Assembly: GCA_043807785.1 (NCBI GenBank)
Contig: JAZDFO010000066.1
Coordinates: 1-33,486 of the forward strand
Source: Candidatus Micrarchaeota archaeon
GTDB taxonomy: Archaea > Micrarchaeota > Micrarchaeia > Norongarragalinales > SBBD01
DNA: 33,486 nt
Reading direction: 5' to 3'
The notes below the pieces were generated by a model that saw only the letters and a program-made list of their open reading frames with translations, had not been told where the DNA came from and did no database searches. Positions 7,201 to 32,871 of the stretch are shown here, piece by piece (positions within the stretch are counted from its first letter, which is position 1; every line of letters starts with the position of its first letter). A program made the position numbers and the translations under genes.

Positions 7201-7422
7201 GTCAAGCGGCTCAATATAGATTCGGTCTGCGGAATCGAAGTCAGTCTGGATGGTCGCCGGGTTGCTGTTGACGAGAACGACCTCTATCCCCTCCTCTTTC
7301 AAGGCGCGGCAGCATTGCGTCCCGGAATAATCGAATTACCGCCTAACGAGCTATGCTCGCTTGGTTTCGGCCGCCTGGCCGATTACAATGGGACCGCTGC
7401 CTATGACTAGTACTTTGCGCAT
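4243..7422 (-). CDS. carB: Carbamoyl-phosphate synthase large subunit, interrupted. Exon 1 is 7422..7366 (MRKVLVIGSGPIVIGQAAE), a 30-nt intervening sequence is 7365..7336, and exon 2 is 7335..4243.
   Basis: ORF 4243..7302 shows the duplicated ATP-grasp architecture of CarB (VLVNSNPATIQTDFD and IVINNNPETVSTDFD repeats) and, with the N-terminal segment added, is about 1049 aa. Hand translation upstream of the annotated Met continues as FDYSGTQCCRALKEEGIE. The missing N-terminus is found 30 nt further upstream in the same frame. Confidence 0.9.
7336..7365 (-). other. 30-nt in-frame intervening sequence in carB (ACCAAGCGAGCATAGCTCGTTAGGCGGTAA); candidate BHB-type mini-intron
   Basis: It contains TAG and TAA in frame and sits exactly between GQAAE and FDYSG. 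It folds by hand into a 3-nt bulge, a 4-bp helix and a 3-nt bulge plus an intron hairpin (details in findings). Confidence 0.6.
7393..7419 (-). repeat. Proximal copy of the duplicated carB start segment (CGCAAAGTACTAGTCATAGGCAGCGGT, encoding RKVLVIGSG)
   Basis: 23 of 27 nt are identical to 8492..8518. All four differences are synonymous third-position changes, and this copy uses the A/T-ending codons. Confidence 0.85.
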
Positions 7423-7432
7423 ATTCGGAATT

Positions 7433-8536
7433 TTAGGTATGCTCATCACCCCGCAAGACTGCCTTATGAAGCCGTTGCGCCTTAATTTTTTGAGTAAAGT
7501 TGATTTTATTGTAAAACTGACGCACATCATATTTTCGGTTAACGATAATCCCGCGCACCACTCGTTCACAATCACCAACATGGTATCGCCGTGCAACATA
7601 TGGCCGCGTCGATACTATTCCGAAGTCAGCAAGCAATTTTCGGATATCCTCCAAATACAGAATAAAATCCAAGTCAATAGAATTTGCCCGGGTAAAATGC
7701 AGGTTGACATTCCTTGCAGCGTAATTCTCCGAATAGAGCACGGAGCCGTCATCGTCGAAAAGAGCCTGCAAAAAGGCTTTCTTCAATTCCATCGTACCGG
7801 CCATTATCCAATCTGGGACGCTGAGGATGGAAAACACCTTCCTCCCACGCGGAGCGCCGGCAATTTCAAGGATGCGGCCGACAAGCGAGGAGAAACTGAC
7901 TTTGCACGTTCCGTCACCATTCGACCCGGAATAAGTCGGAAAAGAGTGAAAAACAGCCTCGACATCAGTTTTAACCCTCTCAATCAGTTGCAGGTCGCCG
8001 TTGACGTAGTCGAACTCCGCCTTCTTCGAGCTGATATTCCCGTCTCCAAAGCAATGCCCCACCAATCCTGCCAATGCAACAGATTCAATTATTGGAAAAT
8101 GCACGAAAACCTTGCCGCCTCGACTGGAAATTATTTTTAAAACCCGTGATTCGGCATCAATACAAGAAAGCCCGTGCAATGACAAGAGCTTTTTCAAAGT
8201 CGAAAGCCGGATCCCGTGCCGGCCATTTTTAAGGTGATAAAAGTAAGACTTTGAAACGCCCAATTGAACAGGCGCAGAATTGTAGTCTAGGCTCTCGAAG
8301 AGGCTGCGCCTAAACCCGTCGTCCAGCTTTATAATAAAATCTTCCGGCAAGTCAGCCAAATGTATTTCCATAGGCGCAACCGAGCATTTCAAATGCAATA
8401 AAATATCCGCACACGGATAACCACGCGGCAGAATAAACGATTTTCGAAACCTCGTTTCCGGTGCGCTGGTGAGCGCAAAGCTGCCCTCACTACCGCTGCC
8501 GATGACAAGCACCTTGCGCACTCCGGCGGGGTTCAT
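7433..8536 (-). CDS. Double-motif LAGLIDADG homing endonuclease with an HTH-like N-domain. As drawn it is fused in frame to a relic of the carB start (MNPAGVRKVLVIGSG). An independent start at Met 8371 (MEIHLADL) is plausible.
   Basis: Two LAGLIDADG motifs are present: ALAGLVGHCFGDGNI and KAFLQALFDDDGSV. The body is visibly AT-richer than its flanks. The minus strand reads ATATTTTATTGC at about 8395-8406, roughly 30 nt upstream of ATG 8371. The stop codon is at 7433-7435, 10 nt before the carB ATG at 7422. Confidence 0.85.
   Translation of the reverse strand: MNPAGVRKVLVIGSGSEGSFALTSAPETRFRKSFILPRGYPCADILLHLKCSVAPMEIHLADLPEDFIIKLDDGFRRSLFESLDYNSAPVQLGVSKSYFYHLKNGRHGIRLSTLKKLLSLHGLSCIDAESRVLKIISSRGGKVFVHFPIIESVALAGLVGHCFGDGNISSKKAEFDYVNGDLQLIERVKTDVEAVFHSFPTYSGSNGDGTCKVSFSSLVGRILEIAGAPRGRKVFSILSVPDWIMAGTMELKKAFLQALFDDDGSVLYSENYAARNVNLHFTRANSIDLDFILYLEDIRKLLADFGIVSTRPYVARRYHVGDCERVVRGIIVNRKYDVRQFYNKINFTQKIKAQRLHKAVLRGDEHT
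8492..8518 (-). repeat. Distal copy of the duplicated carB start segment (CGCAAGGTGCTTGTCATCGGCAGCGGT)
   Basis: See 7393..7419. This copy uses G/C-ending codons like the rest of the host genes, and it follows an ATG (8536) that overlaps the preceding stop codon as ATGA. Confidence 0.85.
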
Positions 8537-9063
8537 GAGGGGTTCCCCCGGCCTATTCGCTTGCGCTCCAATTCTTCCAACCGTTTGATACCAGCTGTAA
8601 AAGAATGGCGCGTGGATAGCCCCAGAGTGTGGTTCAAATAATCGAGCATGCCGGTTTTCGGGTCATGCACGGCAAGCCCGCCGGGATGTAATTTTTCGAG
8701 ATGCCGGTATACCGCCCTTAACAAATCACGGGCTATCCCCGCTTTTCTCTCGTAATCGTAGAATTTGCGAGGACCCGATTCCAAAGTCGGCTCATAGGGG
8801 TAGAAGATGGAAAAAACAAATTCGTTAGGAGGATCATTGCGCACTACAACGTGCCCCATCCGGTCCCCTAGAGTTGCCGTTTTCTCAATCATCAGCCTCT
8901 CAAGTGCTGGATTTGAGAAGAAGGCTACTGCGGATGGAGGAAGCGATTTTTCGCGGGCAAATATTGTCGTGAACTTGTAAGCACGCACAATACCCTGGGA
9001 GCCCAATCTTTCGAGTACCACCGCTAGCCCGAGCCGCCCAATGTCCTCAATTTCTCTCTTCAT
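8533..9063 (-). CDS. Hypothetical 176-aa protein wedged between carA and the carB-start relic
   Basis: This is the in-frame Met (MKREIEDIGRLG...) of ORF 8533..9159. Its ATG overlaps the carA stop as ATGA (9063-9060), and its TGA overlaps the next ATG as ATGA (8536-8533). I recognise no domain. The stretch KAGIARDLLRAVYRHLEK is only weakly reminiscent of an acyltransferase motif. Confidence 0.55.
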   Translation of the reverse strand: MKREIEDIGRLGLAVVLERLGSQGIVRAYKFTTIFAREKSLPPSAVAFFSNPALERLMIEKTATLGDRMGHVVVRNDPPNEFVFSIFYPYEPTLESGPRKFYDYERKAGIARDLLRAVYRHLEKLHPGGLAVHDPKTGMLDYLNHTLGLSTRHSFTAGIKRLEELERKRIGRGNPS

Positions 9064-10166
9064 AGCATTTTCACGAAGTCGTCGAAAAGGTAGTTTGCGT
9101 CTGCCGGGCCGCACGAGCCCTCGGGGTGGAACTGGCACGAAAATACCGGCAGCTCGCAATGGCGCAGGCCCTCGTTGGTGCCATCGTTGCAGTCCTCGAA
9201 GGTCGGCTTGACTCCCTGGGGCAAATCCTTGACGGCGTAGCCGTGATTCTGCGATGTGATGAAAATCCGTCCCGTCTCAAGGTTTCGCACCGCGTGGTTT
9301 GCGCCGCGGTGGCCGAATTTCAGCTTGTAAGTCGACGCGCCCAAGGCGTGCGCGAGAAGCTGGTGCCCAAGGCATATGCCGAATACGGGCATTTTCTTCA
9401 ATAGTCCGCGCACGGTGGAAATGGTTGGCGCAAGCAGCGCCGGGTCGCCCGGGCCGTTGGAGACAAGCAGCCCGTCCGGCTCGCTTTTTAAAATGTCTTC
9501 GCCGGATGCGTCGAATGGAAACAGCTCGACGGCGACATTCCTTGCAAGCAATTGGCGCACGATGCTTTCCTTTACCCCGCAGTTGATGAGCGCTACCTTC
9601 TTGGACCAGCCCTCCGGCTCGCGCAAGGACCTTTCCTTGCACGACACCTGCCCGACGAAGTTGATGCCGCCGTAGTCGTAGGAACGGATTTTTTCTAGCG
9701 CGCGGCTCGCAGCCTCGGCTGCGCTTTCGGATGGTTGCAGCGGCATCACTGCTGCGGGCATGACGCCTTTCTCGCGCACCCGCAGCACGATGTCGCGCGT
9801 GTCAACGCCGCAGATGCCGGGTATTCCGTGGCTCGAGAGGAATTCGCCAAAGCCCTGCGTTGACTTCGGATGGCAAGAGAACGACGAAACCTCCCTTGCG
9901 ACAACGGCGCGCAAGTGCGGCTTGGCCGATTCAAGCCATTCGCCGGAGATTCCGTAATTTCCCACGAGTGGGTAGGAAAAAGCGAGGATTTGGCCGGCAT
10001 ACGAAGGGTCGGTGACGGCTTCGGGGTAGCCGGTCATGGCGGTGGAAAAGACGAGCTCGCCGACGGATTCGGCAACTGCACCGAATTGGCTGCCCTCGTA
10101 GACGGAACCGTCACAGAGGGCCAATATGGCGCGTTGCGCACTGGATACTGGCGGGGTCGGCTTCAT
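9060..10166 (-). CDS. carA: Carbamoyl-phosphate synthase small subunit (glutamine amidotransferase)
   Basis: Class-I GATase nucleophile elbow FGICLGHQLL, the His/Glu region CQFHPEG, and 368 aa. Confidence 0.95.
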   Translation of the reverse strand: MKPTPPVSSAQRAILALCDGSVYEGSQFGAVAESVGELVFSTAMTGYPEAVTDPSYAGQILAFSYPLVGNYGISGEWLESAKPHLRAVVAREVSSFSCHPKSTQGFGEFLSSHGIPGICGVDTRDIVLRVREKGVMPAAVMPLQPSESAAEAASRALEKIRSYDYGGINFVGQVSCKERSLREPEGWSKKVALINCGVKESIVRQLLARNVAVELFPFDASGEDILKSEPDGLLVSNGPGDPALLAPTISTVRGLLKKMPVFGICLGHQLLAHALGASTYKLKFGHRGANHAVRNLETGRIFITSQNHGYAVKDLPQGVKPTFEDCNDGTNEGLRHCELPVFSCQFHPEGSCGPADANYLFDDFVKML

Positions 10167-10295
10167 GAAGAATCAGGAGGAATTGCTGCGGATTCGGGTT
10201 TATTAAACGATTGGCCGGGATGGTTGGGGATTGCGGCGGGCTTGGCAGGCGCCTCAAGCAAAACGCTTTTTATAGCCTTGCGCGGTTATGCAGGC

Positions 10296-10988: not shown

Positions 10989-10998
10989 GACAACGCGC

Positions 10999-11580: not shown

Positions 11581-11671
11581 AAGCCAGCCGCTTGACCCGC
11601 CGCAAAATCAACCACGGGTTAATCCAGGTTATACCAGACAATTATTAGCCTGCGGGCGCAAAAAAAGGCGC

Positions 11672-13033
11672 ATGGGGCACCCGGGCTGGGAATTCACCTG
11701 CGCAGGCGGCGCGCAATATTGCGCCGGCGAGAGCCTGCGCCTTTCGCAGGCCGAAAGCGAGGTCCTTGCGGCTGCGCTCAAAATCCACCTGGAGGCAGGC
11801 GACGGGGAAAAAAGCCGCGGCACGCATTGGGCACTCCTGCAGGCGTGCAAGGCGCGCAGGCTGGCGCTGGGCAGGGAAAGGGCCTCGGCAGTTGAAACCG
11901 CAATGGAAATGGCGCTCTGCGGCACTGGAATCCTGGGAAAGCTCATCGAAGACGACGCCATCGAGGAAATCAGCGTAATCGGCGCCAACAAGCCAGTGCG
12001 CGTCTATCTGCGCGGCCGCGGATGGAGGCTCACCGACGTGGCGCTCACCTCCGAGGAATTCGCGGTCAGCGCGGTAAACCGCCTCGCGCGGCCGCTTGGC
12101 CGCAGGCTCACGTATTCGACGCCGAGGCTCAACGCAGCAATGGGGCGCATGCGCATCCACGCGAGCATGCCCCCGGCGTCGCGCGAAATAGAAATAACGA
12201 TACGGAAATTCACCGCCGAGCCGTTCTCCATGCCGTCGCTTATCCGCTGCGGGATGATAAGCGCGCGCGCAGCAGCATTCCTTTGGCTTGTCGCGGCAGC
12301 CGACTCCTCCGTATTAATCGCCGGCAACACCGGCAGCGGCAAGACCACGCTGCTCAACGCGATTTTCTCCTTCGTGCCTGCGCAGGAGCGCGTAATCGCA
12401 ATCGAGGAGACGCCGGAAATGCAGGTGCCGCAGGAGCACTGCGTGAGGCTGCTTGCAAGCGAAAAGCTCGGCATCAGCATGCAGTCGCTGGTGCAGGACA
12501 GCCTGCGCATGAGGCCCGACCGGGTGGCAATCGGCGAAGTCCGCACGCCACAGGAGACGCGCGCACTCATGGACTCGCTCTTATCAGGCCAGGCAAAGGC
12601 CGCCTACGCGACTTTCCACGCCAACTCCGCTGCCGAGGCGCTCACAAGGCTTGCGGCGCTCGGGGCATTGGAAAGCGAGCTGGATTCGATAAAGTGCATC
12701 GTAGTTTGCAGGCGCGCGACGCTGCTGGGCGGCAAGGCATCCGGAAAGGGGGCAACGGAGGAGAGGAAGGTTACTGAAATTGCGGAAGTCGCCCAAGGCA
12801 AGGCCGTAAGCCTCTACACTGCGGATGGTTCAATGCTCAAGCCCACCAAGGCCCTAAATTCAAGCAAGCTCCTCTCCTCACTCGAAGCAAATTACGGGAG
12901 GGGCAGGCGATGGATGCTTGAAGAAATCAGGGAAAGGGCGGATTTTCTCGGCAAGCTCGCAGCCAAGCCCATTCCTTACAGGGAAGCGAACAAGGCGATT
13001 TGGGAGAGGAAAGAAGCGCTACCAGGCGACTGA
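11672..13033 (+). CDS. Type II/IV secretion-family ATPase (PilB/FlaI/VirB11/CpaF superfamily)
   Basis: Walker A is LIAGNTGSGKTTLLNA. The Asp box is RVIAIEETPEM, Walker B is MRPDRVAIGEVR and the His box is ATFHANS. Start chosen at Met 11672. Confidence 0.85.
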   Translation: MGHPGWEFTCAGGAQYCAGESLRLSQAESEVLAAALKIHLEAGDGEKSRGTHWALLQACKARRLALGRERASAVETAMEMALCGTGILGKLIEDDAIEEISVIGANKPVRVYLRGRGWRLTDVALTSEEFAVSAVNRLARPLGRRLTYSTPRLNAAMGRMRIHASMPPASREIEITIRKFTAEPFSMPSLIRCGMISARAAAFLWLVAAADSSVLIAGNTGSGKTTLLNAIFSFVPAQERVIAIEETPEMQVPQEHCVRLLASEKLGISMQSLVQDSLRMRPDRVAIGEVRTPQETRALMDSLLSGQAKAAYATFHANSAAEALTRLAALGALESELDSIKCIVVCRRATLLGGKASGKGATEERKVTEIAEVAQGKAVSLYTADGSMLKPTKALNSSKLLSSLEANYGRGRRWMLEEIRERADFLGKLAAKPIPYREANKAIWERKEALPGD

Positions 13034-14029
13034 CTCGGCGTCGATGCGCGCGCGCTGGGAAGGCAGGCGGCGCAAGCCGATGCGCTTGGATAACTGGAAC
13101 AGCCCGGCCAAGGCTATCATGCCACCGTTGTCCCCGCAGTATTCCAATGGCGCGGCCCCGAAGCGCGCGTTGTGCTCTTTGGCAGCCAACGCGAGCATTG
13201 CCGAAAGCCTCTTGTTGCGCGCGTTCCCGCCAACCAAAAGCAGTTCCTTGGCGCCGTAAACGGAGAGAGCCTTCTCGGCGCACTCGCATATCATGGAAAA
13301 AGCCGTCTCCTGCACGGAATAGCAAAGGTCTGGCGGTGAAGCGACTGCCTTTTGGGATGCGGTAAGGAGTCCCGAAAACGACATGTTCATTCCCTTCACG
13401 CTATAGGGCAGCGGCACGAGGTTGCGGCCCTTGCGCGCCGCCTCGAGCACGCCCACCGCGTCAGGGGGTGAAAGCGAGAGGTTCCTGCCGACCAAATCGA
13501 GCATGTTTCCCGCGCCGATGTCAAGCGTTTCCCCGACGATTTGGTAATGCCGTTTCCCGGGCTTGCCGCCCAGGCGGAGAATCTGCGTGTTGCCGCCGGA
13601 AACATACGCCACGACTGGGGCGCGCATGCGGGTGAAAAAGCGGCCGACTTCCGCGTGCGCCAGCGCGTGGTTGACGCCAACGAGGGGAATGCCCAGCGAT
13701 TCACAAAGCGTTTTGGCGGCGACAAAGCCGACGTGAAGCGAGTGCCCCAGGCCCGGGCCGTAAGAGTAAGCCACGGCATCCAAATCGCGGGGCTTTATTG
13801 ACGCCTTGTCGAGTGCGCGCAAGGCCACTTCCTTGAAGTGCTTTGCATGGTGGTCGGCGAGCTTGCGGGGAATGAACCCCTCGCGCAGGGAAGGGTATTT
13901 CGCGGACTCATTGGAGAGAATGCGCGTCGATTTGCCAAACGGCGCGGACATGCTTCCCCTCGCTACCCCGACGCCAAGCGTGTGAGCAGTGCATTCGATT
14001 CCCAATACGAGGCGTGATGAGGTTTTCAT
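13019..14029 (-). CDS. kae1: Kae1/TsaD-family tRNA N6-adenosine threonylcarbamoyltransferase
   Basis: N-terminal LVLGIECTAHTLGVGV, the metal-binding region GVNHALAHAE, and YVSGGNTQ. Start set at MKTSSRLVLGIE (14029) rather than at the track start 14050. Confidence 0.9.
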   Translation of the reverse strand: MKTSSRLVLGIECTAHTLGVGVARGSMSAPFGKSTRILSNESAKYPSLREGFIPRKLADHHAKHFKEVALRALDKASIKPRDLDAVAYSYGPGLGHSLHVGFVAAKTLCESLGIPLVGVNHALAHAEVGRFFTRMRAPVVAYVSGGNTQILRLGGKPGKRHYQIVGETLDIGAGNMLDLVGRNLSLSPPDAVGVLEAARKGRNLVPLPYSVKGMNMSFSGLLTASQKAVASPPDLCYSVQETAFSMICECAEKALSVYGAKELLLVGGNARNKRLSAMLALAAKEHNARFGAAPLEYCGDNGGMIALAGLFQLSKRIGLRRLPSQRARIDAESVAW

Positions 14030-14103: not shown

Positions 14104-14532
14104 ATGAAAATCATTTACAAACAGGTTCAAACAATCAACGAATTTATCGACGCAATCAGGTTAAGGGCCGATGTTTTTATTAAAGAACAGGGGTTTCAAC
14201 CCGGATGGGAACCCGATGAGGATGACAAGAAGTCCGTTCATTATATAGCAATATGCGGCGGGAAGGTTGTCTCAACTGCGCGGCATAGGGAAACTGCGAA
14301 GGGAGAGATTAAGATTGAGCGTATGGCCACAGCTAAAGATTACAGGGGAAAAAATATCGGCAGGGGGCTGGTTGTTTTCATGATTGATGAAATCAAAACG
14401 CTTGGGCCGAAACGAATCTGGTTAAGAAGCCAGGTCCAATCACAGAAGTTCTACGAAAAATGCGGGTTTGCCGCCGTTTCAAAGCCATTCGACCAATGGG
14501 GAGTCCCGCACATAGACATGGAACATGCATAG
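14104..14532 (+). CDS. GNAT-family N-acetyltransferase (AT-rich insert)
   Basis: GNAT motif A is YRGKNIGRGLVVFMIDE, with C-terminal KFYEKCGF. This is the internal Met (MKIIYKQ) of ORF 14014..14532. G+C is visibly lower than in the flanks. Confidence 0.85.
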   Translation: MKIIYKQVQTINEFIDAIRLRADVFIKEQGFQPGWEPDEDDKKSVHYIAICGGKVVSTARHRETAKGEIKIERMATAKDYRGKNIGRGLVVFMIDEIKTLGPKRIWLRSQVQSQKFYEKCGFAAVSKPFDQWGVPHIDMEHA

Positions 14533-14539: not shown

Positions 14540-14603
14540 GGTTCCCTTCAATTGCCGACGCGACCAGCGCGTAGGCAGTGCATTCGATTCCAAGGACGAG
14601 CAT
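14540..14603 (-). pseudogene. Orphan relic of the kae1 5' end (MLVLGIECTAYALVASAIEGN...)
   Basis: The 17-nt core GCAGTGCATTCGATTCC at 14575-14591 is identical to 13986-14002 in the live kae1 gene. The ATG at 14603 gives MLVLGIECTA, after which the sequence diverges. Confidence 0.6.
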
Positions 14604-16259: not shown

Positions 16260-16535
16260 ATGACAAATGCGAATATTCGGATTAGGACTGTTTTCGTCAA
16301 CGACCGCGGGCAGATAGTCATCCCGGAGGACATCCGCAGGGACCTGGGATTGAAGGCAAACGAGGTGCTCGTGCTCATCGAGAAGGCGGGGCACATGCTT
16401 TTGCGGAGGGAAAAGGACGTCGCCCACCGTTTCGGCGCTGACGAGGAGGAGTCGTTCTGGAGGGCGCTCTCGCTAAAGGCGCTCGAAAACGCCTGGGACG
16501 AGAAGGACGCCGCGTGGGACAAGGTAAAGAAGTGA
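16260..16535 (+). CDS. AbrB/SpoVT-fold antitoxin (MazE-like)
   Basis: MTNANIRIRTVFVNDRGQIVIPEDIRRDLGLKANEVLVL is a swapped-hairpin AbrB-type motif. This is the last third of track ORF 15930..16535. Candidate TATA CTTAAATAGC lies about 35 nt upstream. Confidence 0.75.
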   Translation: MTNANIRIRTVFVNDRGQIVIPEDIRRDLGLKANEVLVLIEKAGHMLLRREKDVAHRFGADEEESFWRALSLKALENAWDEKDAAWDKVKK

Positions 16536-16541
16536 TTCGCG

Positions 16542-16880
16542 ATGATGCAGGGGGAGCTGGTCTGGGTACGGTTTCCTTACTCCGACTTGCAGCAGGAAAA
16601 AATCAGGCCTACCCTCGTGGTATCGAATACTGAATACAACCGGAAGAGCCCGGACGTTGTCGTCTGCGCGGTGACGTCCAACCTCGAGCCAAGGCCTTAC
16701 AGCATCGCACTGCCGCAGGACCAAGTGACGGACGGCAAGCTGCCTTTGCCAAGCCGCATCCGGGCGGACAAGATCATGCAAGTCAGCCAAAGCATGGTGC
16801 TCAAGGCCTTCTGCAGGGTAAAGCCCGCAGTATTCGACAGCACCTTGCGCGAAATCCAGCGGTTGACCAAACGGGAATAG
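16542..16880 (+). CDS. MazF/PemK-family endoribonuclease toxin
   Basis: GELVWVRFPYSDLQQEKIRPTLVVS plus VVCAVTSN plus SRIRADKIMQVS match the PemK fold signature. It starts 6 nt after the antitoxin gene ends. Confidence 0.85.
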   Translation: MMQGELVWVRFPYSDLQQEKIRPTLVVSNTEYNRKSPDVVVCAVTSNLEPRPYSIALPQDQVTDGKLPLPSRIRADKIMQVSQSMVLKAFCRVKPAVFDSTLREIQRLTKRE

Positions 16881-22911: not shown

Positions 22912-24078
22912 TTGGGCGTTGAATTCGAGCTTGACGAAGACCGAATAATAGTGCGGGACCTCATCTCAGTTCAAGCGCTCGACAAGGGATATTTCGGCAG
23001 CGAAAACCCGCAAAGCAAGGCCCAGCTCATACTCATGCCCGAAGAGGCGCTCTACCTCATTGACGTGCGCAACGCCACCTGCAGGCGCGGCAAGCGCGAC
23101 GCGTCCTTCAACGAAGTCGCGCGCAAGTTCTCCAAGGCCAAGAAATTCCTCGCAAGGTACTACTGCTACCGCGACTGGCGCGACCGCGGGCTCATTGCAC
23201 GCTCGATTGCCGAAGCGCACGGAGACTACGGCCGCAGCCCCGTATCGAAATACCCGTCGAAGGAAACCCGCTTTGAGCAAGTCAAGGCCCGCGCGCTATT
23301 CTTCACCGACGACCTCATGGCGGTAATTGACGACGACGAGGAAGGCCGCAGGCTCTACGAACAAGGATGGTTCGGGCAATTCGGCACCTACAAGGCCAAA
23401 AAGCACGGCCGGTTCCTCAAGCTCGACGCATACGAGACACTGTTTTTGATGCGCCACGCAGGGCTCAAAACCAATATCATCGAAAAGAAGCTCCTCAAGG
23501 AATGCCTGCGCCGGCGCGCGGACTTCCCCGCGCTCTACGAAGTCTACGAGGACTGGAGGCTGCGCGCCTTCGTGCTCAAGACCGGGTTCAAGTTCGGCAC
23601 GCACTTTAGGCTCTACTTCCCTGGTGCGTCGCCGGCGCTCGCCAACGACGAGTGGATGCACAGCAAGCACGTGATACAGGTCTTCCCCAGGGAAAGCAAG
23701 ATGCTCATCAGCGAGTGGGCGCGCGCAATCCGCGTCGCGCACGGAGTGAAAAAGACGTTCATTTTGGCGATTCCGGGCGCCAAAAAGCCAACTGAAGGCG
23801 CAAGCGCTGATTTTCTGCTCTACCACCGCAAGAAAGGCGGCCTGATAGAGAACCCGAAAGAGGACACTCCGAAATACGCAATGCTTGCGTTGAGCGAAGA
23901 GGAGGAAATCGGCGGCGAAGAGCTCGCCGGCGCAATCGACAACGCCAAGAACTTAGGGCTCGACCTCATGCTTTCAATCTGCGACCGCGAGACCTCGATA
24001 ACGCACTACCGCGTCAAGCGCGTCGAGCTCCCGAAAAGCAAGTACGAATACTACGAGATTGAATGGACGCAGCCGTGA
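22912..24078 (+). CDS. endA: tRNA-splicing endonuclease, single-chain three-unit architecture (388 aa)
   Basis: The central catalytic unit reads ALYEVYEDWRLRAFVLKTGFKFGTHFRLY ... HSKHVIQVF ... RVAHGVKKTFILA, giving candidates for a Tyr/His/Lys triad. An N-terminal EndA-like unit contains YCYRDWRDRGLIARS, and a third C-terminal unit follows. The start appears to be TTG 22912. Confidence 0.85.
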   Translation: MGVEFELDEDRIIVRDLISVQALDKGYFGSENPQSKAQLILMPEEALYLIDVRNATCRRGKRDASFNEVARKFSKAKKFLARYYCYRDWRDRGLIARSIAEAHGDYGRSPVSKYPSKETRFEQVKARALFFTDDLMAVIDDDEEGRRLYEQGWFGQFGTYKAKKHGRFLKLDAYETLFLMRHAGLKTNIIEKKLLKECLRRRADFPALYEVYEDWRLRAFVLKTGFKFGTHFRLYFPGASPALANDEWMHSKHVIQVFPRESKMLISEWARAIRVAHGVKKTFILAIPGAKKPTEGASADFLLYHRKKGGLIENPKEDTPKYAMLALSEEEEIGGEELAGAIDNAKNLGLDLMLSICDRETSITHYRVKRVELPKSKYEYYEIEWTQP

Positions 24079-24242: not shown

Positions 24243-24440
24243 ATGTCGGTTCTGACTGTTGAATTCCGGGGCGTGCTTGAGGATGTCCTGACCGCCCTGG
24301 TCAAGCAAGGGTATGCCAAGACGAAGTCTGAAGCGCTGCGCATGGCGCTTTTGCATTACGGCGAGGAGCTCGGGCTGGTGCATAGCAGGCTGCACGCGAA
24401 GGCCGAGGAATACGCCTACGCCGAAATCAAGTCCAGGTGA
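24243..24440 (+). CDS. VapB-type antitoxin (small DNA-binding protein)
   Basis: 65 aa. Its stop codon overlaps the start of the downstream PIN gene (GTGA at 24437-24440). Confidence 0.6.
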   Translation: MSVLTVEFRGVLEDVLTALVKQGYAKTKSEALRMALLHYGEELGLVHSRLHAKAEEYAYAEIKSR

Positions 24441-24826
24441 GCCGCATGTATCTGGACGTAGACGTGCTTTACGCGCTGGTGAAGGAAAAGGACTTCCACA
24501 AAGAATACGCCGAAAGGATTACTGCAACGGCGGGCGCCAAGGTAACGTCCTGCGTTTCCCTCCTCGAGCTCGAAATCGTCGTCAAGCGCGAGCTCGGGGA
24601 CGAGAAAAGCATGGAAATTGACCGGTGGGTCCGCAGGCTCGTGCCCGGGATTGACATTGCCGAATTTACGGAAAAACAGTTCGCCAAGAGCCTCGAATTG
24701 AGGAAAAAATACGGGCTGGGAATATTCGACGCCGTCCACGCCGCGGTTTGCCTGGAGAAGGGAGGGCAGATGGCATCGACCGACCACGCCTTCGACCGCG
24801 TGCCCGGAATCGCCAGGATAAAATAG
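24437..24826 (+). CDS. vapC: PIN-domain ribonuclease toxin (VapC)
   Basis: The four acidic PIN residues are in the expected order: YLDVDV, LLELE, IFDAVHAA and STDHAFD. Length is about 129 aa. Confidence 0.85.
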   Translation: MSRMYLDVDVLYALVKEKDFHKEYAERITATAGAKVTSCVSLLELEIVVKRELGDEKSMEIDRWVRRLVPGIDIAEFTEKQFAKSLELRKKYGLGIFDAVHAAVCLEKGGQMASTDHAFDRVPGIARIK

Positions 24827-24873: not shown

Positions 24874-25038
24874 GCGAAGAGCTCGCCTGCGCAATCGACA
24901 ACGCCAAGCACCTCGGCCTCGACCTGATGCTCTCAATCTGCGACAGGGAAACCCAGCATCACACACTACCGCGTCAAGCGCGTCGAGCTCCCGAAAAGCA
25001 AGTACGAATACTACGAGATTGAATGGACGCAACCCTAG
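24874..25038 (+). pseudogene. Displaced, frameshifted copy of the endA 3' end
   Basis: It aligns with 23915..24078. The last 68 nt before the final few codons are identical (24964-25031 = 24004-24071). The upstream part differs mainly at synonymous positions and carries a 1-nt insertion that breaks the frame. Confidence 0.8.
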
Positions 25039-25056
25039 GGTAAGAGGGGGGAGGGG

Positions 25057-25144
25057 CGACACGCGTCCGCGGAGACTTCGCGTCTCCGGGGCGCCGAAGA
25101 CTGGTGGTCTTCGAGCGGGGGGGAGTCTTCCCCCAGAGGTGTCG
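25057..25144. other. 88-nt cloverleaf-like module: three GC-rich hairpins closed by a 6-bp stem
   Basis: The closing stem is CGACAC (25057-62) with GTGTCG (25139-44). Hairpin 1 is CGGAGAC-TTCGC-GTCTCCG (25070-88). Hairpin 2 is CGAAGAC-TGGTG-GTCTTCG (25096-114). Hairpin 3 is GGGGGA-GTCT-TCCCCC (25119-34). Hairpins 1 and 2 differ by a compensatory G-C to A-T pair. Confidence 0.4.
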
Positions 25145-25148
25145 AATG

Positions 25149-25176
25149 CTACGAGATTGAATGGACGCAGCCGTAG
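25149..25176 (+). repeat. Third, short copy of the endA 3' terminus (CTACGAGATTGAATGGACGCAGCCGTAG)
   Basis: 26 nt (25149-25174) are identical to 24051-24076 at the end of the live endA gene. This copy ends in TAG rather than TGA. Confidence 0.75.
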
Positions 25177-25230
25177 ATTCAACGGCAACACTACCCTAAA
25201 ATAGGATAGCCGCAATAGCGGCGGAAAAGC

Positions 25231-26613: not shown

Positions 26614-26691
26614 GCGAATCTCCCCTGGTTTGGTTGGATATTAATTGCTTATAAAGAATTGGCTTAATTGAATGGCACTACGTTGCTGCCG

Positions 26692-28055: not shown

Positions 28056-28082
28056 GCACCCCAAAAAACGATTTTGCGGCAA

Positions 28083-29180: not shown

Positions 29181-29195
29181 GGAAGAAAGCCACCG

Positions 29196-30803
29196 CTAGG
29201 ACAACTGCTTTCCCATATAAATGCCGTCGCGTGCGTAGCCAAGCGCACGGTAGTAGTTGCGCACCCCCACGCCGGAGATGACCAGCAGCTTGTTCGCGCC
29301 GAATTCCTCGCGGGAAACCCGTTCCGCCTCCGCCAGCAGCTGGCTGCCCAAGCCGCCGTGCTGCATGGAATCCAGCTTGTTGGAACCATCCTTTTCGCCG
29401 ACGCGGAGTTGCTCGCCGTAGACATGCAGTTCGCGAACGCCGGCCGTATTGGGCGCAATCTCGGGCCGAAAACGAGTTTCGCCGGGAATCCGAAGGCGCA
29501 AAAAGCCAAGCAGAGCACCGATGCCAGTTTCCTCGAAGCTCAAGAACACCTCTTGCCCACCGCTGGCGGCGTAATCCCTGCGAACCATGCGCACATTTTC
29601 CCAGTCGACGCGCGTGCCACGCTTGAGCTGCCGGATTCCGGCCTCCCTGCACCGGATGCAGCGGCATTCAACGCCGTTTTTGCGCATCTTTATGGCAATC
29701 AGCTCCCGCAGGTTGCTTTTCTCCACGCCGTCGGCGATGAGGTTGACGGGAATGTCGCGGTTGACGCGCATGATGCGGCACCACTCCGGCACGAAGCGCT
29801 TGCACTCTGCGATTACGCCGGCGGCGGTCTCGGAATCATAAGGCTTGTATTCGCCGCGCCGCCACAACTGGTAAAGCGGGGTGTTGGGCATGACCAGAGT
29901 CGGGTAAATCTTGAGCATGTCGGGCTGGAAATCGCCGCCGGTAAAAAGGCGCTTAAAGTCCTCGACGTCCTCTTGCGGGTTTGCAAAAAGCCCGGGCATC
30001 ATATGGTAGCAGACCTTGACGAAAGAGTCCTTGAGCCTCGCGGTGGCGCCAATAACGTCCGCAACGGTGTGCCCGCGGCCGCTCTTTTTCATCACCGCCT
30101 CCGACAGCGACTGGACGCCGATTTCCACGCGCGTCATGCCGTAATCGAGCATCGCCGAAATCTGGGAAGGCGAACAATAGTCGGGCCGCGTCTCCAAGGT
30201 AAGCCCGATCATGCGGTGCTTGGCAGACTCGTTGAGCTCCTGCGCGGCCTGGATGGAGGCGGATGGCACGCCGTTGAGGGCGTCGTAAATGCCTTTGATG
30301 AATTTATCAGTATACTCCGCCGGCGCGGAATTGAAGGTCCCGCCCTGCACGATTACCTCGCACTTTCCAGTGACATGGCCGATGAGCTCGAACTGGCGCA
30401 AGCGGGCGTTGACCTGCCTAAAGGAATCATAATCGTTTTGCGACGCGCGGCGCGCTGCCGGCTCCTTTCCAGTGTACGCCTTTGGCGAGCCGGCCTCGAC
30501 GCCGCCGGGGCAGTAAATGCACTTCCCCGGGCACGGCATCGGCACAGTCATGATGGCGATGTTGCTGATGCCCGAAAGCGAGCGCACGTCCTTGATTTTA
30601 AGGAGCCTGCGCCAGTCTTCGGAAATGCCACCCTCCATTTTCTCGACGAATTCGAGGATGTCCGGGTTCTTCACAACGCCGGAAAGCCCGTTTGCGCTGC
30701 ACGCCGACATCTTGAGGCGCTCAAGCTCGCGCGGCGGCATCCCGGGATTTTTCTTGAGCCGCGCGTAGATTTGCGCCAGAGCAAGCTCCTTGTTGGAATC
30801 CAT
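29196..30803 (-). CDS. elp3: Elp3-family radical-SAM/GNAT tRNA wobble-uridine modification enzyme
   Basis: Radical-SAM cluster CPGKCIYCPGG, a C-terminal GNAT region QHGGLGSQLLAEAERV, and about 535 aa. Confidence 0.9.
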   Translation of the reverse strand: MDSNKELALAQIYARLKKNPGMPPRELERLKMSACSANGLSGVVKNPDILEFVEKMEGGISEDWRRLLKIKDVRSLSGISNIAIMTVPMPCPGKCIYCPGGVEAGSPKAYTGKEPAARRASQNDYDSFRQVNARLRQFELIGHVTGKCEVIVQGGTFNSAPAEYTDKFIKGIYDALNGVPSASIQAAQELNESAKHRMIGLTLETRPDYCSPSQISAMLDYGMTRVEIGVQSLSEAVMKKSGRGHTVADVIGATARLKDSFVKVCYHMMPGLFANPQEDVEDFKRLFTGGDFQPDMLKIYPTLVMPNTPLYQLWRRGEYKPYDSETAAGVIAECKRFVPEWCRIMRVNRDIPVNLIADGVEKSNLRELIAIKMRKNGVECRCIRCREAGIRQLKRGTRVDWENVRMVRRDYAASGGQEVFLSFEETGIGALLGFLRLRIPGETRFRPEIAPNTAGVRELHVYGEQLRVGEKDGSNKLDSMQHGGLGSQLLAEAERVSREEFGANKLLVISGVGVRNYYRALGYARDGIYMGKQLS

Positions 30804-30877
30804 TGGAAAAGCTGGGGATTGTTAAAAATAAAAACGCCCCGCTGGCGGGAAAAAAAGGAAAGAAACGCGGAAAACGG

Positions 30878-31294
30878 TCAGCGCTCGCGGCCGAACAGGA
30901 GCACGCCGGCGGCCAACAGGACCAGCCCGAGCACGAAATCAACGTAAATCGTCTGCATGAAGGCGTTGGCTATCTTGGATATGCTGTCGTTCACAATCTG
31001 TCGCGCCTGCGCCGAGCTGGCGGAAATGTCGGCCTCGGCCTGGCCCATGGAGCGCGCCTGTTCCTCGCTTGCCGTAATCTGCGCGTCGAGCAGCGGCTTG
31101 CTGATTTCCGACTGCGCGGAAGTGATTTGCATCTGGTTGTACTGGCTTGCCGCAAGCGCCATAAACGCCGTGCCGAGCAACAGGAAAACGTAGCTTAACG
31201 CGATTTTCTTGGACAAGAATCCCACACCCCTCCAACGACGGAGGGAACAATTAACCACCACTGAATTTAAAAATGCCCCGCCATCTCTGTTCAC
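30878..31294 (-). CDS. Small membrane-anchored hypothetical protein (start uncertain, possibly GTG 31225)
   Basis: Two hydrophobic segments (ALSYVFLLLGTAFMALAA and FVLGLVLLAAGVLLFG) flank a Gln/Ser/Ala-rich stretch. A hairpin CCCGC-CA-GCGGG plus a T-run follows on the minus strand (30835-30849). Confidence 0.45.
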   Translation of the reverse strand: MNRDGGAFLNSVVVNCSLRRWRGVGFLSKKIALSYVFLLLGTAFMALAASQYNQMQITSAQSEISKPLLDAQITASEEQARSMGQAEADISASSAQARQIVNDSISKIANAFMQTIYVDFVLGLVLLAAGVLLFGRER

Positions 31295-31333
31295 AACGCA
31301 TTAAAAACAATAAACACCATTTCTTTTTACAAC

Positions 31334-31441
31334 GCCTCCGTAGCTCAGCAGCAGAGCGCCTGTCTTGTAACCCGCCGCGCCCCGGTTCCGCGCGATGGGA
31401 AGGAAAACAGGAGGTCGAGGGTGCGACCCCCTCCGGAGGCT
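31334..31441 (+). tRNA. tRNA-Thr (anticodon UGU) with a 36-nt BHB intron at the canonical 37/38 position (31370..31405)
   Basis: Folded by hand. The acceptor stem is GCCTCCG/CGGAGGC, the D arm is GCTC-AGCAGCA-GAGC, and the anticodon stem is CCTGT/ACAGG with loop CTTGTAA. The T arm is GAGGG-TGCGACC-CCCTC and the discriminator base is T. Intron bulges are UA|A and AA|A, the central helix is CUUG/AAGG (with one G.A mismatch), and the intron helix is CCC/GGG plus CGCGC/GCGCG. An AT-rich box TTAAAAAC lies about 26-33 nt upstream. Confidence 0.85.
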
Positions 31442-31616
31442 TCCGATTTACCTGGTGATGACCATGAAAGGAAGCTATTCCATGATGCATGCCGACACCG
31501 CGTTGATGGCAGTAGGCGCCATCATGTTCTTGGGCGGCGACCCAACCGGCATGTGGGTTGCCGTAGCCGGCGCCGGATTGCATTTCGCGTCAGGCGGCGT
31601 TTAAACTCGTTATTCT

Positions 31617-31639
31617 GGTGCGACCCCCTCCGGAAGCTT
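31617..31639 (+). repeat. Direct repeat of the tRNA-Thr 3' end (GGTGCGACCCCCTCCGGAAGCTT), att-like
   Basis: 22 of 23 nt are identical to 31419-31441/2 within the tRNA T arm and acceptor stem. Confidence 0.7.
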
Positions 31640-32869: not shown

Positions 32870-32871
32870 TA

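What the first reader, a model, noticed from the sequence alone, without database searches (positions are those of the whole stretch)
7393..31639. Recurrent theme: four conserved genes each carry small cargo flanked by a duplicated gene terminus, with the gene kept intact
Within 25 kb the same pattern appears four times. At the carB 5' end the repeat is 27 nt and the cargo is the LAGLIDADG gene. At the kae1 5' end there is a 17-nt core plus diverged flanks, and the cargo is a GNAT gene. At the endA 3' end there is a 68-nt core plus diverged flanks, three copies, and the cargo is vapBC plus an RNA-like module. At the tRNA-Thr 3' end the repeat is 23 nt with 174-bp cargo. In each case the gene-proximal copy preserves a full-length gene and the distal copy is an orphan relic. 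Cargo is 0.17-1.1 kb and often AT-richer than the host DNA. No integrase, recombinase or transposase lies between any pair of repeats. Integration into tRNA 3' ends with regeneration is textbook; the same logic applied to the first or last codons of protein genes by sub-kilobase, enzyme-less cassettes is not something I can assign to a described element class. Alternatives are heavily decayed islands, strain-level homologous recombination scars, or cassettes mobilised in trans.
Basis: inference. Interest (0 to 1): 0.7.

Follow-up and report, generated by a model that had tools for sequence, protein, structure and literature searches.

The report
Gene-end insertion scars in a Micrarchaeote
In a tiny archaeon's compact genome, foreign DNA has repeatedly landed at the very ends of essential genes and left a spare copy of each gene end; one case is a selfish endonuclease gene paired with a 30-base intron that must be cut out of a protein-coding mRNA, which is very rare in archaea.

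Summary
All four repeats are real, at the stated coordinates, and far above chance. The contig is from a Micrarchaeota (DPANN) archaeon. They are not one enzyme-less cassette class.

(1) carB: the cargo is an intact LAGLIDADG homing endonuclease gene, itself a mobility enzyme. The "intact" carB has a 30-nt insert with two stop codons. In 20 HEG-linked carB genes (17 distinct) a 19-39 nt insert sits at the same codon boundary and fits a bulge-helix-bulge intron with full covariation.

(2) kae1/GNAT, endA/vapBC, and polD-L in a relative: live and relic termini differ almost only synonymously (26:5). A foreign orthologous terminus replaced the native one, as with endonuclease ORFs in fungal mitochondria.

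(3) The endA "RNA-like module" belongs to a small hairpin-element family. In related genomes it sits after gene and tRNA 3' ends, flanked by identical 31-68 nt target duplications.

(4) tRNA-Thr: the repeat borders an AT-rich island with an IS630 element running off the contig. It may be an integrase att site or a type-3 event.

Two other toxin-antitoxin inserts have no relic. Verdict: partly supported, a new variant of known kinds. The carB intron plus flanking endonuclease is the most notable part.

The parts
4243..7335 (-). carB exon 2 (starts FDYSGTQ..., 1030 codons, uninterrupted)
   Evidence: Pfam CPSase domains; translation; used as the query
7336..7365 (-). 30-nt bulge-helix-bulge mini-intron in carB (carries TAG and TAA): GCCG|AA^A-[CCAAGCGAGC-AUA-GCUCGUUAGG]-CGGU|AA^U
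7366..7422 (-). carB exon 1, live copy (MRKVLVIGSGPIVIGQAAE); 7393-7421 is the gene-proximal repeat; it uses rare host codons
7433..8536 (-). LAGLIDADG homing endonuclease ORF (367 aa); its first 15 codons are the native carB start
   Evidence: Pfam; 18 homologs with invariant GDG and DDDG motifs; AF2 pLDDT 86; fold matches I-Tsp061I, I-DmoI and intein endonuclease domains
8492..8536 (-). relic of the native carB start (MNPAGVRKVLVIGSG), with common host codons, translationally coupled (ATGA overlap) to the upstream ORF
13019..14029 (-). kae1 (live), with a new N-terminus MKTSSR followed by LVLGIECTAHT; the proximal repeat is 13972-14011
14104..14532 (+). GNAT acetyltransferase cargo (45.5% GC); closest relatives are about 76% identical, in Woesearchaeota, CPR bacteria and other DPANN
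14555..14603 (-). relic of the native kae1 start (MLVLGIECTAY...); 86 nt from the polD-S start, against 75 nt for the real kae1 start in L001
22912..24078 (+). endA (epsilon2, ARMAN-2-type splicing endonuclease); the live terminus copy A is 23915-24078
24243..24826 (+). vapB-vapC toxin-antitoxin cargo
24874..25039 (+). endA terminus relic B (about 163 nt, 1-nt frameshift, ends TAG)
25040..25142 (+). hairpin module (G-rich leader, CGACAC/GUGUCG outer stem, three internal hairpins), a member of the R1 family
25143..25176 (+). endA terminus relic C (34 nt, ends TAG)
31334..31441 (+). tRNA-Thr(UGU) with a 36-nt BHB intron (31370-31405); the proximal repeat is 31420-31442
31443..31616 (+). 174-nt cargo holding a 48-codon hydrophobic ORF (31458-31604); no hairpin module and no significant fold
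31617..31639 (+). orphan copy of the tRNA-Thr 3' end (22 of 23 nt)
31775..32871 (-). IS630-type insertion sequence (DDE_3 transposase, 30-nt terminal inverted repeats) inside an AT-rich island that runs to the contig end

Best explanation
These are scars of separate insertions at gene boundaries in a very compact Micrarchaeota genome. An insertion within the first or last codons of an essential gene survives only if the gene end is regenerated, so every survivor looks like 'live terminus, cargo, orphan terminus'. At least three agents are involved.

A, carB. The mobile unit is a free-standing LAGLIDADG homing endonuclease gene, a foreign carB exon 1, and a 30-nt BHB intron. The intron sits in the most conserved carB motif (GQAAE|FDYSG). 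I infer that this motif is the endonuclease's target and that the intron protects the carrier allele, as in 'collaborative homing'. After a break in a naive carB, repair copied the donor from exon 2 leftwards through the intron, exon 1 and the HEG. The left end then joined illegitimately to the resected native exon 1. That left the native start fused in frame to the HEG. The host's epsilon2 EndA must splice the intron for CarB to be made.

B, kae1/GNAT and endA/vapBC (and polD-L in L001). Foreign DNA carrying an orthologous gene end plus cargo recombined homologously inside the gene and illegitimately at the other side. It displaced the native terminus, which remains as a relic.

C, endA copies B and C. 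A small hairpin element mobilised in trans inserted at the gene's 3' end with a 34-nt target duplication. The same happens after polD-L, polD-S and tRNA-Gln in relatives.

The tRNA-Thr repeat is either a type-C event or an integrase att site.

Shown: the repeats, the empty sites, the intron structure and covariation, the HEG fold, the synonymous divergence, and the module family. Inferred: the splicing itself, the HEG target, and the recombination pathways.
For: Organism and empty sites.

HEG. The HEG is immediately upstream of carB in 19 of 19 loci where HEG identity is about 30% or more.

Intron: the same codon boundary in 20 of 20 loci, with lengths of 19-39 nt, many not multiples of 3. With boundaries taken only from the reading frame, the BHB rule gives a 4-bp helix in 14 of 17 distinct sequences and 3 bp in 2; L104 fits only after I shifted its register by +1 by hand. 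Shifted registers collapse. 97% of cells are paired, 8 of 8 pairs show compensatory change, and 0 of 500 shuffles reach this. The BHB is the minimum-free-energy fold, or within 1 kcal/mol of it, in 5 of 6 tested. EndA is the epsilon2 ARMAN-2 type, the broad-specificity class (PMC12397907). The paralogous site in carB's second half is uninterrupted. The nearest representative carB is uninterrupted.

Foreign exon 1: the live copy uses rare codons and the relic uses common ones. Relics of varying length occur in window, L083, P0003 (reaching ...GQA) and P0018, and none in L082.

Class B: synonymous to nonsynonymous differences are 4:0, 4:2, 9:3 and 9:0. GNAT shows signs of horizontal transfer. 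Precedent: PMC3630166.

Class C: covariance model hits. Identical target repeats occur in L028 (68 of 68) and L002 (32 of 32), and L007 has 30 of 31, including 14 nt beyond the tRNA. Precedent for long variable duplications: IS1634 and IS1549, 8-514 bp (PMC2266710).

Inserts without relics.
Against: There are no RNA data, so splicing of the carB intron is inferred from structure, covariation and an intact 1030-codon exon 2. The outer BHB helix is weak (about 1 bp adjacent to the core), so this is a relaxed motif. All intron examples were collected through the HEG, so I cannot say whether the intron occurs without it. No HEG-free or intron-free allele was found in a close relative, only at 57% identity. 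The HEG target is not demonstrated. For class B, no donor was identified, and the relatives are too distant to say which endA copy is native. Synonymous bias is partly expected simply because the live copy stays under selection. The hairpin module has no identified transposase, no clear terminal inverted repeats, and only about 9 copies in the sequence available. Stop-codon enrichment of local repeats in relatives is weak. The tRNA-Thr cargo has neither a module nor an integrase.
Confidence: 0.6

Rival explanations
1. One reading: one undescribed class of sub-kilobase, enzyme-less cassettes, mobilised in trans, that integrate into the first or last codons of genes and tRNAs and regenerate the terminus by design.
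For: The same anatomy occurs at four or more sites in 25 kb, and again at polD-L, polD-S, endA and tRNA-Gln in relatives. The hairpin module does behave like this, and it is co-oriented with its target in every terminus-flanked case.
Against: Site 1 encodes its own endonuclease. The repeats fall into two kinds: diverged with synonymous bias, and identical (against 68, 90). The cargos share no end sequences. GNAT and vapBC homologs elsewhere lack terminus repeats. The mazEF and HEPN/MNT inserts have no relic.
Confidence: 0.13
2. Every site is a target-site duplication made by a transposase with long, variable staggered cuts (IS1634/IS1549-like), and the repeats diverged afterwards.
For: Repeat lengths vary widely (about 10 to 163 nt), as IS1634 and IS1549 produce. 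The module repeats are identical and one extends past the tRNA end. That IS family is common in Euryarchaeota.
Against: Divergence at the gene-cargo sites is 26 synonymous to 5 nonsynonymous, and the live carB copy uses non-host codons. No such transposase is in the window; the only one is IS630-type. The cargos have no terminal inverted repeats. At carB, kae1 and L028 polD-L the insert supplies the new start or stop codon.
Confidence: 0.1
3. Heavily decayed integrase-type islands: each repeat pair is an attL/attR left after most of an integrated element was deleted.
For: The tRNA-Thr 3'-end repeat is the classic att geometry. It borders an AT-rich island carrying an IS element that runs off the contig, so an integrase could lie beyond the end. 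The endA copies share an exact 68-nt core.
Against: No integrase or integrase fragment lies within or next to any pair. The endA homology extends upstream of the core, not downstream of it as attP-borne gene ends do. Viral contigs hold no exact match to the tRNA or endA cores. Four independent near-complete deletions in 25 kb is not parsimonious.
Confidence: 0.1
4. Assembly artefact: co-existing strains were collapsed or chimerically joined, creating false duplicates.
For: The contig is a metagenome assembly, and the repeats are 80-96% identical, like strain variants.
Against: The relics are truncated, and one is frameshifted. They sit at unique junctions that must exist in the reads. The kae1 relic occupies the native position relative to polD-S, as in L001. 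The same architectures recur in independent assemblies from other studies. The HEG-intron-carB arrangement recurs in 19 other contigs.
Confidence: 0.03

Closest known systems
Mobile endonuclease ORFs (mORFs) of fungal mitochondria that carry a replacement gene terminus (Allomyces atp6; Glomus atp6, atp9, cox2, nad3; PMC3630166)
   Same: A LAGLIDADG or GIY-YIG ORF is inserted in or next to a conserved gene. A foreign copy of the gene terminus arrives with it and keeps the gene functional. The native terminus stays behind as an untranslated relic. Several genes in one small genome are affected. The copies differ mostly synonymously.
   Different: Here the host is an archaeal chromosome. At carB it is the 5' end that is replaced, and the relic is fused to the endonuclease ORF as its start. 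A BHB intron accompanies the unit. Sites 2 and 3 have the same scar but carry no endonuclease.
Collaborative homing: a free-standing endonuclease next to a gene with an ORF-less intron at the enzyme's target (cyanophage S-PM2 psbA with F-CphI; T4 mobE with I-TevIII; PMC6083498, PMC2790892)
   Same: The endonuclease gene lies outside the intron, beside the host gene. The small ORF-less intron interrupts a highly conserved coding motif and would protect the carrier allele. The two are always found together (20 of 20 here).
   Different: The known cases use self-splicing group I introns in phages. Here the intron is a 19-39 nt protein-spliced BHB intron in a cellular archaeal gene. Neither cleavage at the intron site nor intron-mediated protection has been tested.
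Archaeal BHB introns in protein-coding genes (cbf5 of Crenarchaeota; PMC2738675)
   Same: A short intron in a coding sequence, removed at two 3-nt bulges flanking a 4-bp helix by the tRNA splicing endonuclease. It is found in lineages whose EndA has broad specificity.
   Different: A different gene (carB) and different phyla (Micrarchaeota and other DPANN-like lineages, with epsilon2 rather than alpha2beta2 EndA). It is constantly associated with a homing endonuclease. Its length and stem sequence are very variable.
IS1634/IS1549-type insertion with long, variable direct repeats, and the MITEs such enzymes could mobilise (PMC2266710)
   Same: The hairpin module is a short, multi-copy, non-coding element flanked by direct target duplications of variable, unusually long size (31-68 nt).
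   Different: No matching transposase was found. The module has only a 6-bp terminal stem instead of clear inverted repeats. It is always co-oriented with the target gene. Its right end is precise and its left end is ragged.
Integrative elements at tRNA or gene ends that regenerate the target (tRNA att sites; phage 21/e14 in icd; SXT in prfC; recalled from general knowledge)
   Same: There is a direct repeat of the tRNA-Thr 3' end with the tRNA kept intact. The logic of bringing a replacement gene end is the same.
   Different: No integrase was found. The cargo is only 174 nt. The parallel case in L007 has a repeat that runs 14 nt past the tRNA and encloses the hairpin module, which looks like a target duplication and not an att core.

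Membership tests
Archaeal bulge-helix-bulge (BHB) intron | Two 3-nt bulges on opposite strands separated by a 4-bp helix | tested here: met
   14 of 17 distinct introns have 4 of 4 pairs, 2 have 3 of 4, and 1 (L104) fits only in a +1 register that I set by hand. Shifted registers fail. 97% of cells are paired, 8 of 8 pairs covary, and 0 of 500 shuffles reach this.
Archaeal bulge-helix-bulge (BHB) intron | Cutting after the second nucleotide of each bulge and joining the exons restores the functional sequence | tested here: met
   In all 20 loci the predicted cuts rejoin ...(A/G)E to FDYSG in frame, although the insert lengths (19-39 nt) are often not multiples of 3.
Archaeal bulge-helix-bulge (BHB) intron | Flanking outer helix (strict hBHBh' form) | tested here: not met
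   Only about 1 bp lies adjacent to the core, although some fold an exon-exon helix a few nt away. It is therefore a relaxed motif, which needs a broad-specificity EndA.
Archaeal bulge-helix-bulge (BHB) intron | The host encodes a splicing endonuclease able to cut relaxed motifs | tested here: met
   endA at 22912-24078 matches the ARMAN-2 epsilon2 enzyme (4fz2/9w2k) at E = 8e-126. Broad specificity is described in PMC12397907. The RtcB ligase was not looked for.
Archaeal bulge-helix-bulge (BHB) intron | Spliced RNA and excised (often circular) intron observed | not testable with these tools
   No transcriptome data are available.
LAGLIDADG homing endonuclease (free-standing) | Double LAGLIDADG fold with conserved acidic catalytic residues | tested here: met
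   Pfam LAGLIDADG_3. G164-D165 and D261-D262-D263-G264 are invariant. AF2 gives pLDDT 86. Foldseek matches include I-Tsp061I (E = 1e-9), I-DmoI, PI-SceI and the endonuclease domains of VMA inteins.
LAGLIDADG homing endonuclease (free-standing) | Constant association with one target gene or site across hosts | tested here: met
   It lies directly upstream of carB in 19 of 19 loci where HEG identity is about 30% or more, across carB types as different as GSGPIVIGQAAE and GSGSLKIGQAGE.
LAGLIDADG homing endonuclease (free-standing) | Cleaves the allele that lacks it; presence/absence polymorphism among close relatives | not testable with these tools
   The only uninterrupted carB genes seen are distant (57% identity or less).
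mORF-type terminus replacement | The live terminus is foreign and the relic is native | tested here: inconclusive
   Supported at carB: the live copy uses rare codons and the relic uses common ones. The kae1 relic lies at the native position. Synonymous to nonsynonymous differences total 26:5. However, the relatives are too distant to polarise the endA copies.
Integrase-mediated integration at a tRNA or gene end | A tyrosine or serine recombinase gene within or beside the repeat-bounded element | tested here: not met
   None was found among the ORFs of the window. It cannot be excluded beyond the contig end for the tRNA-Thr island.
MITE or IS with target-site duplication (hairpin module) | Multiple dispersed copies, identical flanking direct repeats, and empty sites in relatives | tested here: met
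   The covariance model finds 7 copies in window, L002, L003 and L028, and L007 adds a variant. Repeats are 68 of 68, 32 of 32 and 30 of 31 nt identical. The polD-L site is empty in four genomes.
MITE or IS with target-site duplication (hairpin module) | Terminal inverted repeats and a cognate transposase | tested here: not met
   There is only a 6-bp stem (CGACAC/GTGTCG) and the left end is ragged. The only transposase in the window is IS630-type, with unrelated ends.
Diversity-generating retroelement (variable and template repeats at a gene 3' end) | Differences between the repeats confined to adenines of one copy; a reverse transcriptase nearby | tested here: not met
   Substitutions between endA copies A and B involve all four bases. 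There is no reverse transcriptase in the window.

The most novel reading that the evidence does not exclude
Micrarchaeota (and perhaps other DPANN) have a general, so far undescribed insertion pathway that regenerates gene termini. Small structured elements, co-oriented with their target, and larger gene cargo would enter at the last or first codons of genes and tRNAs with 10-160 nt duplications. The agent would be a trans-acting enzyme, or an RNA-mediated step linked to the broad-specificity splicing endonuclease and ligase. [quoted passage not shown]
Probability: 0.2. Interest if true: 0.85.

Novelty: new variant of a known kind. Interest (0 to 1): 0.68.

Why it matters
First, the carB case would be only the second gene family known to carry a BHB intron in an archaeal protein-coding gene, after cbf5, as far as the searched literature shows. 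It would be the first outside Crenarchaeota. It would also be the first such intron tied to a homing endonuclease, which gives a concrete, testable system for how protein-spliced introns spread into mRNAs. It further suggests a biological role for the broad-specificity epsilon2 EndA of ultrasmall archaea.

Second, gene annotation pipelines miscall these carB genes as truncated (965-1031 aa calls). The effect is to understate pyrimidine and arginine biosynthetic capacity in DPANN genomes.

Third, the terminus-replacement scars show that core genes of these reduced genomes are mosaic at their ends. They also show that horizontal transfer delivers accessory genes (toxin-antitoxin pairs, an acetyltransferase) exactly at operon junctions.

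Fourth, the hairpin module is a candidate new small mobile element with unusually long target duplications.

Tried and rejected
- **Integrase or attP origin:** no recombinase in the window. No exact match of the tRNA-Thr or endA cores on viral contigs.
- **DGR-type variable/template repeats:** the substitutions are not adenine-specific.
- **Cargo genes as a cassette family that always duplicates termini:** the GNAT homolog loci L086 and L087, and the vapBC homolog loci L139 and L140, lie in unrelated contexts with only chance-level repeats.
- **The endA 'RNA-like module' as a known RNA:** no Rfam hit at E = 1 or below.
- **The module on viral contigs:** the exact leader-stem pattern gave no match. 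The inner-hairpin pattern gave 4 contigs sharing an extended motif, but without flanking duplications.
- **Protein-level search for endA relics in relatives:** one search was too coarse. Short 15-17 nt relic-like sequences were later seen by eye.
- **Script and pattern errors:** mixed several loci because one file holds many records; it was redone. The loose regex for the module returned noise and was replaced by a covariance model.
- **Look-ups that returned nothing useful:** the exact-protein look-up of the window's EndA found nothing. DNA for the contigs of P0018 and P0003 was not available.
- **Polarising endA copies A and B against relatives:** uninformative at about 70% identity.
- **Relic searches for the mazEF and HEPN/MNT inserts:** negative.

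Full report
**Source and layout.** The window is a whole 33,486-bp metagenomic contig from a Micrarchaeota (DPANN) archaeon. Its PolD large subunit is 77% identical to the nearest species representative, L001, and about 65% identical to L002-L005 and L028. Pfam confirms carB, carA, kae1, the GNAT gene, both PolD subunits, endA, the PIN (VapC) gene and purD. Rfam finds a tRNA at 31334-31441 that ARAGORN misses because it carries an intron. Its anticodon loop CUUGUAA makes it tRNA-Thr(UGU).

**The observation.** All four repeat pairs are present at the stated coordinates. Block-shuffled versions of the window gave no pairs of this strength, against five observed. The tRNA 23-mer has zero expected matches. 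The strongest local direct repeats in the contig are exactly these, apart from the ancient internal duplication of carB. Relatives provide empty sites. In six related genomes kae1 abuts polD-S with no GNAT gene. The window's orphan kae1 fragment keeps the ATG and about 15 codons; it lies 86 nt from the polD-S start, against 75 nt for the real kae1 start in L001. In L002, endA and purD are 185 nt apart with no vapBC.

**Site 1 is not enzyme-less, and carB is not literally intact.**
- On the minus strand the order is carA, a 176-codon ORF, the LAGLIDADG ORF, then carB. ATGA overlaps couple carA to the 176-codon ORF and that ORF to the LAGLIDADG ORF.
- The LAGLIDADG ORF begins MNPAGVRKVLVIGSG, which is the native carB start.
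- Ten nucleotides after its stop codon a second start gives MRKVLVIGSGPIVIGQAAE. Then come 30 nt containing TAG and TAA, and then FDYSGTQ... followed by an uninterrupted 1030-codon frame.
- The ORF is a genuine homing endonuclease. It has 18 homologs with invariant GDG and DDDG motifs. Its model is confident (pLDDT 86, pTM 0.81), and only residues 1-52, which include the carB relic peptide, are disordered. Fold matches include the archaeal intron-encoded I-Tsp061I and I-DmoI and the endonuclease domains of inteins.

**The 30 nt are a BHB intron.**
- Contigs encoding HEG homologs, plus a metagenome scan seeded only with the HEG alignment, gave 19 loci with HEG identity of about 30% or more. Every one has carB directly downstream.
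- Every one has an insert of 19-39 nt at the same codon boundary, (A/G)E|FDYSG. Many of these lengths are not multiples of three, so translation cannot read through them.
- I fixed the boundaries from the reading frame alone and applied the canonical rule: a 4-bp helix, 3-nt bulges, and a cut after the second bulge nucleotide. The helix is perfect in 14 of 17 distinct sequences and has 3 pairs in 2. L104 scores 0 in the fixed register and fits only after I shifted it by one nucleotide by hand; it still restores E-F-D-Y.
- Four helix types replace one another: GCCG/CGGY, GCGG/CCGC, GCUG/CAGU and GGCG/CGYC. The inner stems are unrelated in sequence but always paired.
- On 14 distinct junction strings, 97.3% of cells pair, 8 of 8 pairs show changes on both sides, and 0 of 500 shuffles reach this. 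Slid registers give 27-49%.
- The BHB conformation is the minimum-free-energy fold, or within 1 kcal/mol of it, in five of the six introns tested.
- The outer helix is weak, so the motif is relaxed. The window's EndA is the epsilon2 ARMAN-2 type (E = 8e-126), which is the class with broad specificity (PMC12397907).
- There are two controls. The paralogous site in carB's second half (IGQGIE|FDY) is uninterrupted. The nearest representative carB (57% identity), and almost all others, have a continuous ...GQAAEFDYSG.
- In the searchable literature, cbf5 of Crenarchaeota is the only archaeal protein-coding gene reported with such an intron (PMC2738675).

**How site 1 probably arose (inferred).**
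- The live exon 1 uses rare host codons (AAA 0.36, GTA 0.10, CTA 0.04, ATA 0.15). The relic uses common ones (AAG 0.64, GTG 0.31, CTT 0.22, ATC 0.59). All four differences are synonymous.
- The HEG is 47% GC, against 60% for carB.
- Relics of the native exon 1 are fused to the HEG in only some loci: the window, L083, P0018 and P0003. In P0003 the relic runs to ...GQA, right next to the intron site. L082 has the HEG cleanly between carA and carB with no relic.
- This fits a break at the intron insertion site in a naive carB. Repair would copy from a donor through exon 2, the intron, the donor's exon 1 and the HEG. The far end would then join illegitimately to the resected native exon 1.
- The arrangement of a free-standing endonuclease next to an ORF-less intron matches collaborative homing (PMC6083498, PMC2790892).
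- Replacement of the terminus with a native relic left behind matches the endonuclease ORFs in Glomus and Allomyces mitochondria, where four genes in one genome show the pattern (PMC3630166).

**Sites 2 and 3 (gene cargo).**
- The live kae1 has a new start, MKTSSR, followed by LVLGIECTAHT. The relic reads MLVLGIECTAY.
- The GNAT gene is 45.5% GC. Its closest relatives are about 76% identical and lie in Woesearchaeota, CPR bacteria, Aenigmarchaeota and Nanoarchaeota. It shares 84% nucleotide identity over 101 nt with a Woesearchaeota locus.
- vapBC relatives are all within Micrarchaeia. The closest, at 81% nucleotide identity, abuts a purC-like gene.
- Neither cargo shows terminus repeats in the other contexts examined.
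- Differences between live and relic termini are mostly synonymous: kae1 4:2 and endA 9:3.
- In L001, a 58-nt duplication of the polD-L terminus around only 68 nt of non-coding DNA shows 9:0, with identical peptides.
- Together with carB (4:0), the total is 26 synonymous to 5 nonsynonymous. The copies therefore diverged under protein-level selection, as orthologous ends from different lineages would.
- I infer one-sided homologous recombination with an illegitimate second junction, but no donor was identified. Relatives at about 70% identity cannot say which endA copy is native.

**The small module, and site 4.**
- The 103 nt between endA relics B and C fold into three hairpins (z = -2.6) and match no Rfam family.
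- A scan of related loci for local repeats found the polD-L 3' end duplicated in L028 (68 of 68 nt identical) and in L001, and the polD-S 3' end triplicated in L002.
- The inserts in L028 and L002 and the window's module share one design: a G-rich leader, a CGACAC/GUGUCG stem, internal hairpin(s), and a precise right end GGTGTCG that abuts the repeated gene end.
- A covariance model built from four copies also finds the window's module, a copy in L003 downstream of endA, and a copy in the L002 kae1/polD-S spacer that is flanked by TTTAATAAA. Its stems are 93% paired, against 35-60% when slid.
- The three L028 copies align to a single polD-L terminus in four genomes with no insert there.
- In L007, a 31-nt repeat made of 17 nt of the tRNA-Gln 3' end plus 14 nt of downstream DNA flanks a 97-nt cargo. 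That cargo holds the same inner hairpin as the L002 modules. A repeat that runs past the gene end is what a target duplication looks like.
- Long variable duplications of 8-514 bp are known for IS1634 and IS1549 (PMC2266710). No such transposase was found here, and the module is co-oriented with its target in every terminus-flanked case.
- The window's tRNA-Thr cargo contains no module. It contains a 48-codon hydrophobic ORF.
- The distal tRNA repeat borders an AT-rich island carrying an intact IS630-type element that runs off the contig. An integrase beyond the end therefore cannot be excluded.

**Not every boundary insert leaves a relic.** A HEPN/MNT pair directly after carB, and a mazEF pair between polD-S and polD-L, have none, although the positive controls score far above the null. 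Across the relatives, 5 of 25 local repeat pairs (6 if the L002 polD-S case that my script merged away is counted) sit on the stop codon of a long ORF, against 2.8 expected. The theme recurs in this lineage but is not a dominant, uniform process.

**Verdict.** The reading 'one new class of enzyme-less cassettes' is only partly supported. What is there is a set of insertion scars at gene boundaries, made in at least three ways and filtered by the need to keep essential genes whole. The most notable component is the carB mini-intron with its flanking homing endonuclease. The hairpin module with long target duplications is a second, less well characterised, lead.

Noticed in passing
window 7336-7365 (- strand): A 30-nt insert with two stop codons inside carB. 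It turned out to be a conserved BHB mini-intron, present in 20 of 20 HEG-linked carB genes.
   Followed up: yes
window 31370-31405: The tRNA-Thr(UGU) has a 36-nt intron at the canonical 37/38 position. Its central helix has 3 of 4 pairs (CUUG/AAGG) and the inner stem is 10 bp. ARAGORN does not detect the gene.
   Followed up: partly
window 31775-32871: An intact IS630-type insertion sequence (DDE_3 transposase, 30-nt terminal inverted repeats) lies about 135 nt beyond the orphan tRNA fragment.
   Followed up: partly
window 32872-33486: AT-rich DNA (38-43% GC) with an open reading frame runs off the contig end. It is probably part of a foreign island next to tRNA-Thr.
   Followed up: no
window 3021-4178 (- strand): A HEPN plus minimal-nucleotidyltransferase toxin-antitoxin pair (51% GC) lies directly downstream of the carB stop codon. 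No carB terminus relic was detected.
   Followed up: partly
window 16261-16880: A mazE/mazF (PemK) pair is inserted between polD-S and polD-L, which are adjacent in L002-L005. No terminus relic was detected.
   Followed up: partly
window 8533-9063 (- strand): A 176-codon ORF with no Pfam family (51% GC) is wedged between carA and the native carB start, with ATGA start/stop overlaps on both sides. It may be a further insertion.
   Followed up: no
window 4198-4237: Two tandem 20-nt hairpin units (CCAATATAAAGGTTGGTTTT and CCAACTTCAAAGTTGGTTTT) lie just downstream of the carB stop codon.
   Followed up: no
window 31458-31604: The 174-nt tRNA-Thr cargo encodes a 48-residue hydrophobic peptide (MTMKGSYSMMHADTALMAVGAIMFLGG...).
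   Followed up: no
L001 9447-10002: A 185-codon ORF inserted between polD-S and polD-L begins with polD-L's own first codons (ATGCCGGCA). polD-L restarts with ATGCCAATC. This is the same 'cargo takes over the native start' layout as the HEG at carB.
   Followed up: partly
L001 13373-13560: The polD-L 3' end is duplicated around 68 nt of non-coding DNA. The two copies differ at 9 codons, all synonymous, and encode the identical peptide.
   Followed up: yes
L028 8933-9235; L002 3429-3642: These are arrays of terminus copy, hairpin module, terminus copy (three copies each) at the polD-L and polD-S stop codons. In L028 the module supplies the last base of the final codon and the TAG stop. In L002 the array has a 91-nt period.
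   Followed up: yes
L002 13288-13472; L003 19787-19870: The endA-purD spacers of relatives hold GC-rich hairpins and 15-17 nt sequences that resemble an endA terminus plus stop codon plus 5 nt (GCAAACCTGAACCGC and similar). The endA 3' end therefore looks like a recurrent insertion hotspot.
   Followed up: partly
L007 4990-5204 (- strand): The tRNA-Gln 3' end plus 14 nt of downstream DNA (31 nt in all) is duplicated around a 97-nt cargo. That cargo carries the same GGGGGAACCGAAGGUGCCCCC hairpin as the L002 modules.
   Followed up: yes
L142 6352-6401; L143 1030-1048; L144 8500-8518; L145 694-712 and 1821-1917: Four low-GC viral contigs, one of them a giant-virus MAG and one from a 219-kb contig, carry an extended motif: AAGGGAGGGGGUC, two variable nucleotides, then A-GGGGGAACCGYAGGUGCCCC. 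It is related to the archaeal module. There is no Rfam family and no flanking duplication, and its nature is unknown.
   Followed up: partly
L104 5863-6438; L105 5862-6440: The paralogous motif in the second half of carB (IGQGIE|FDY) is never interrupted, so the intron is specific to the N-terminal site.
   Followed up: yes
L081 726-1775; L082 268-1314: In two relatives the HEG reading frame has no stop codon of its own. It continues through carB exon 1 and terminates inside the intron. After splicing, a HEG-CarB fusion frame would exist.
   Followed up: no
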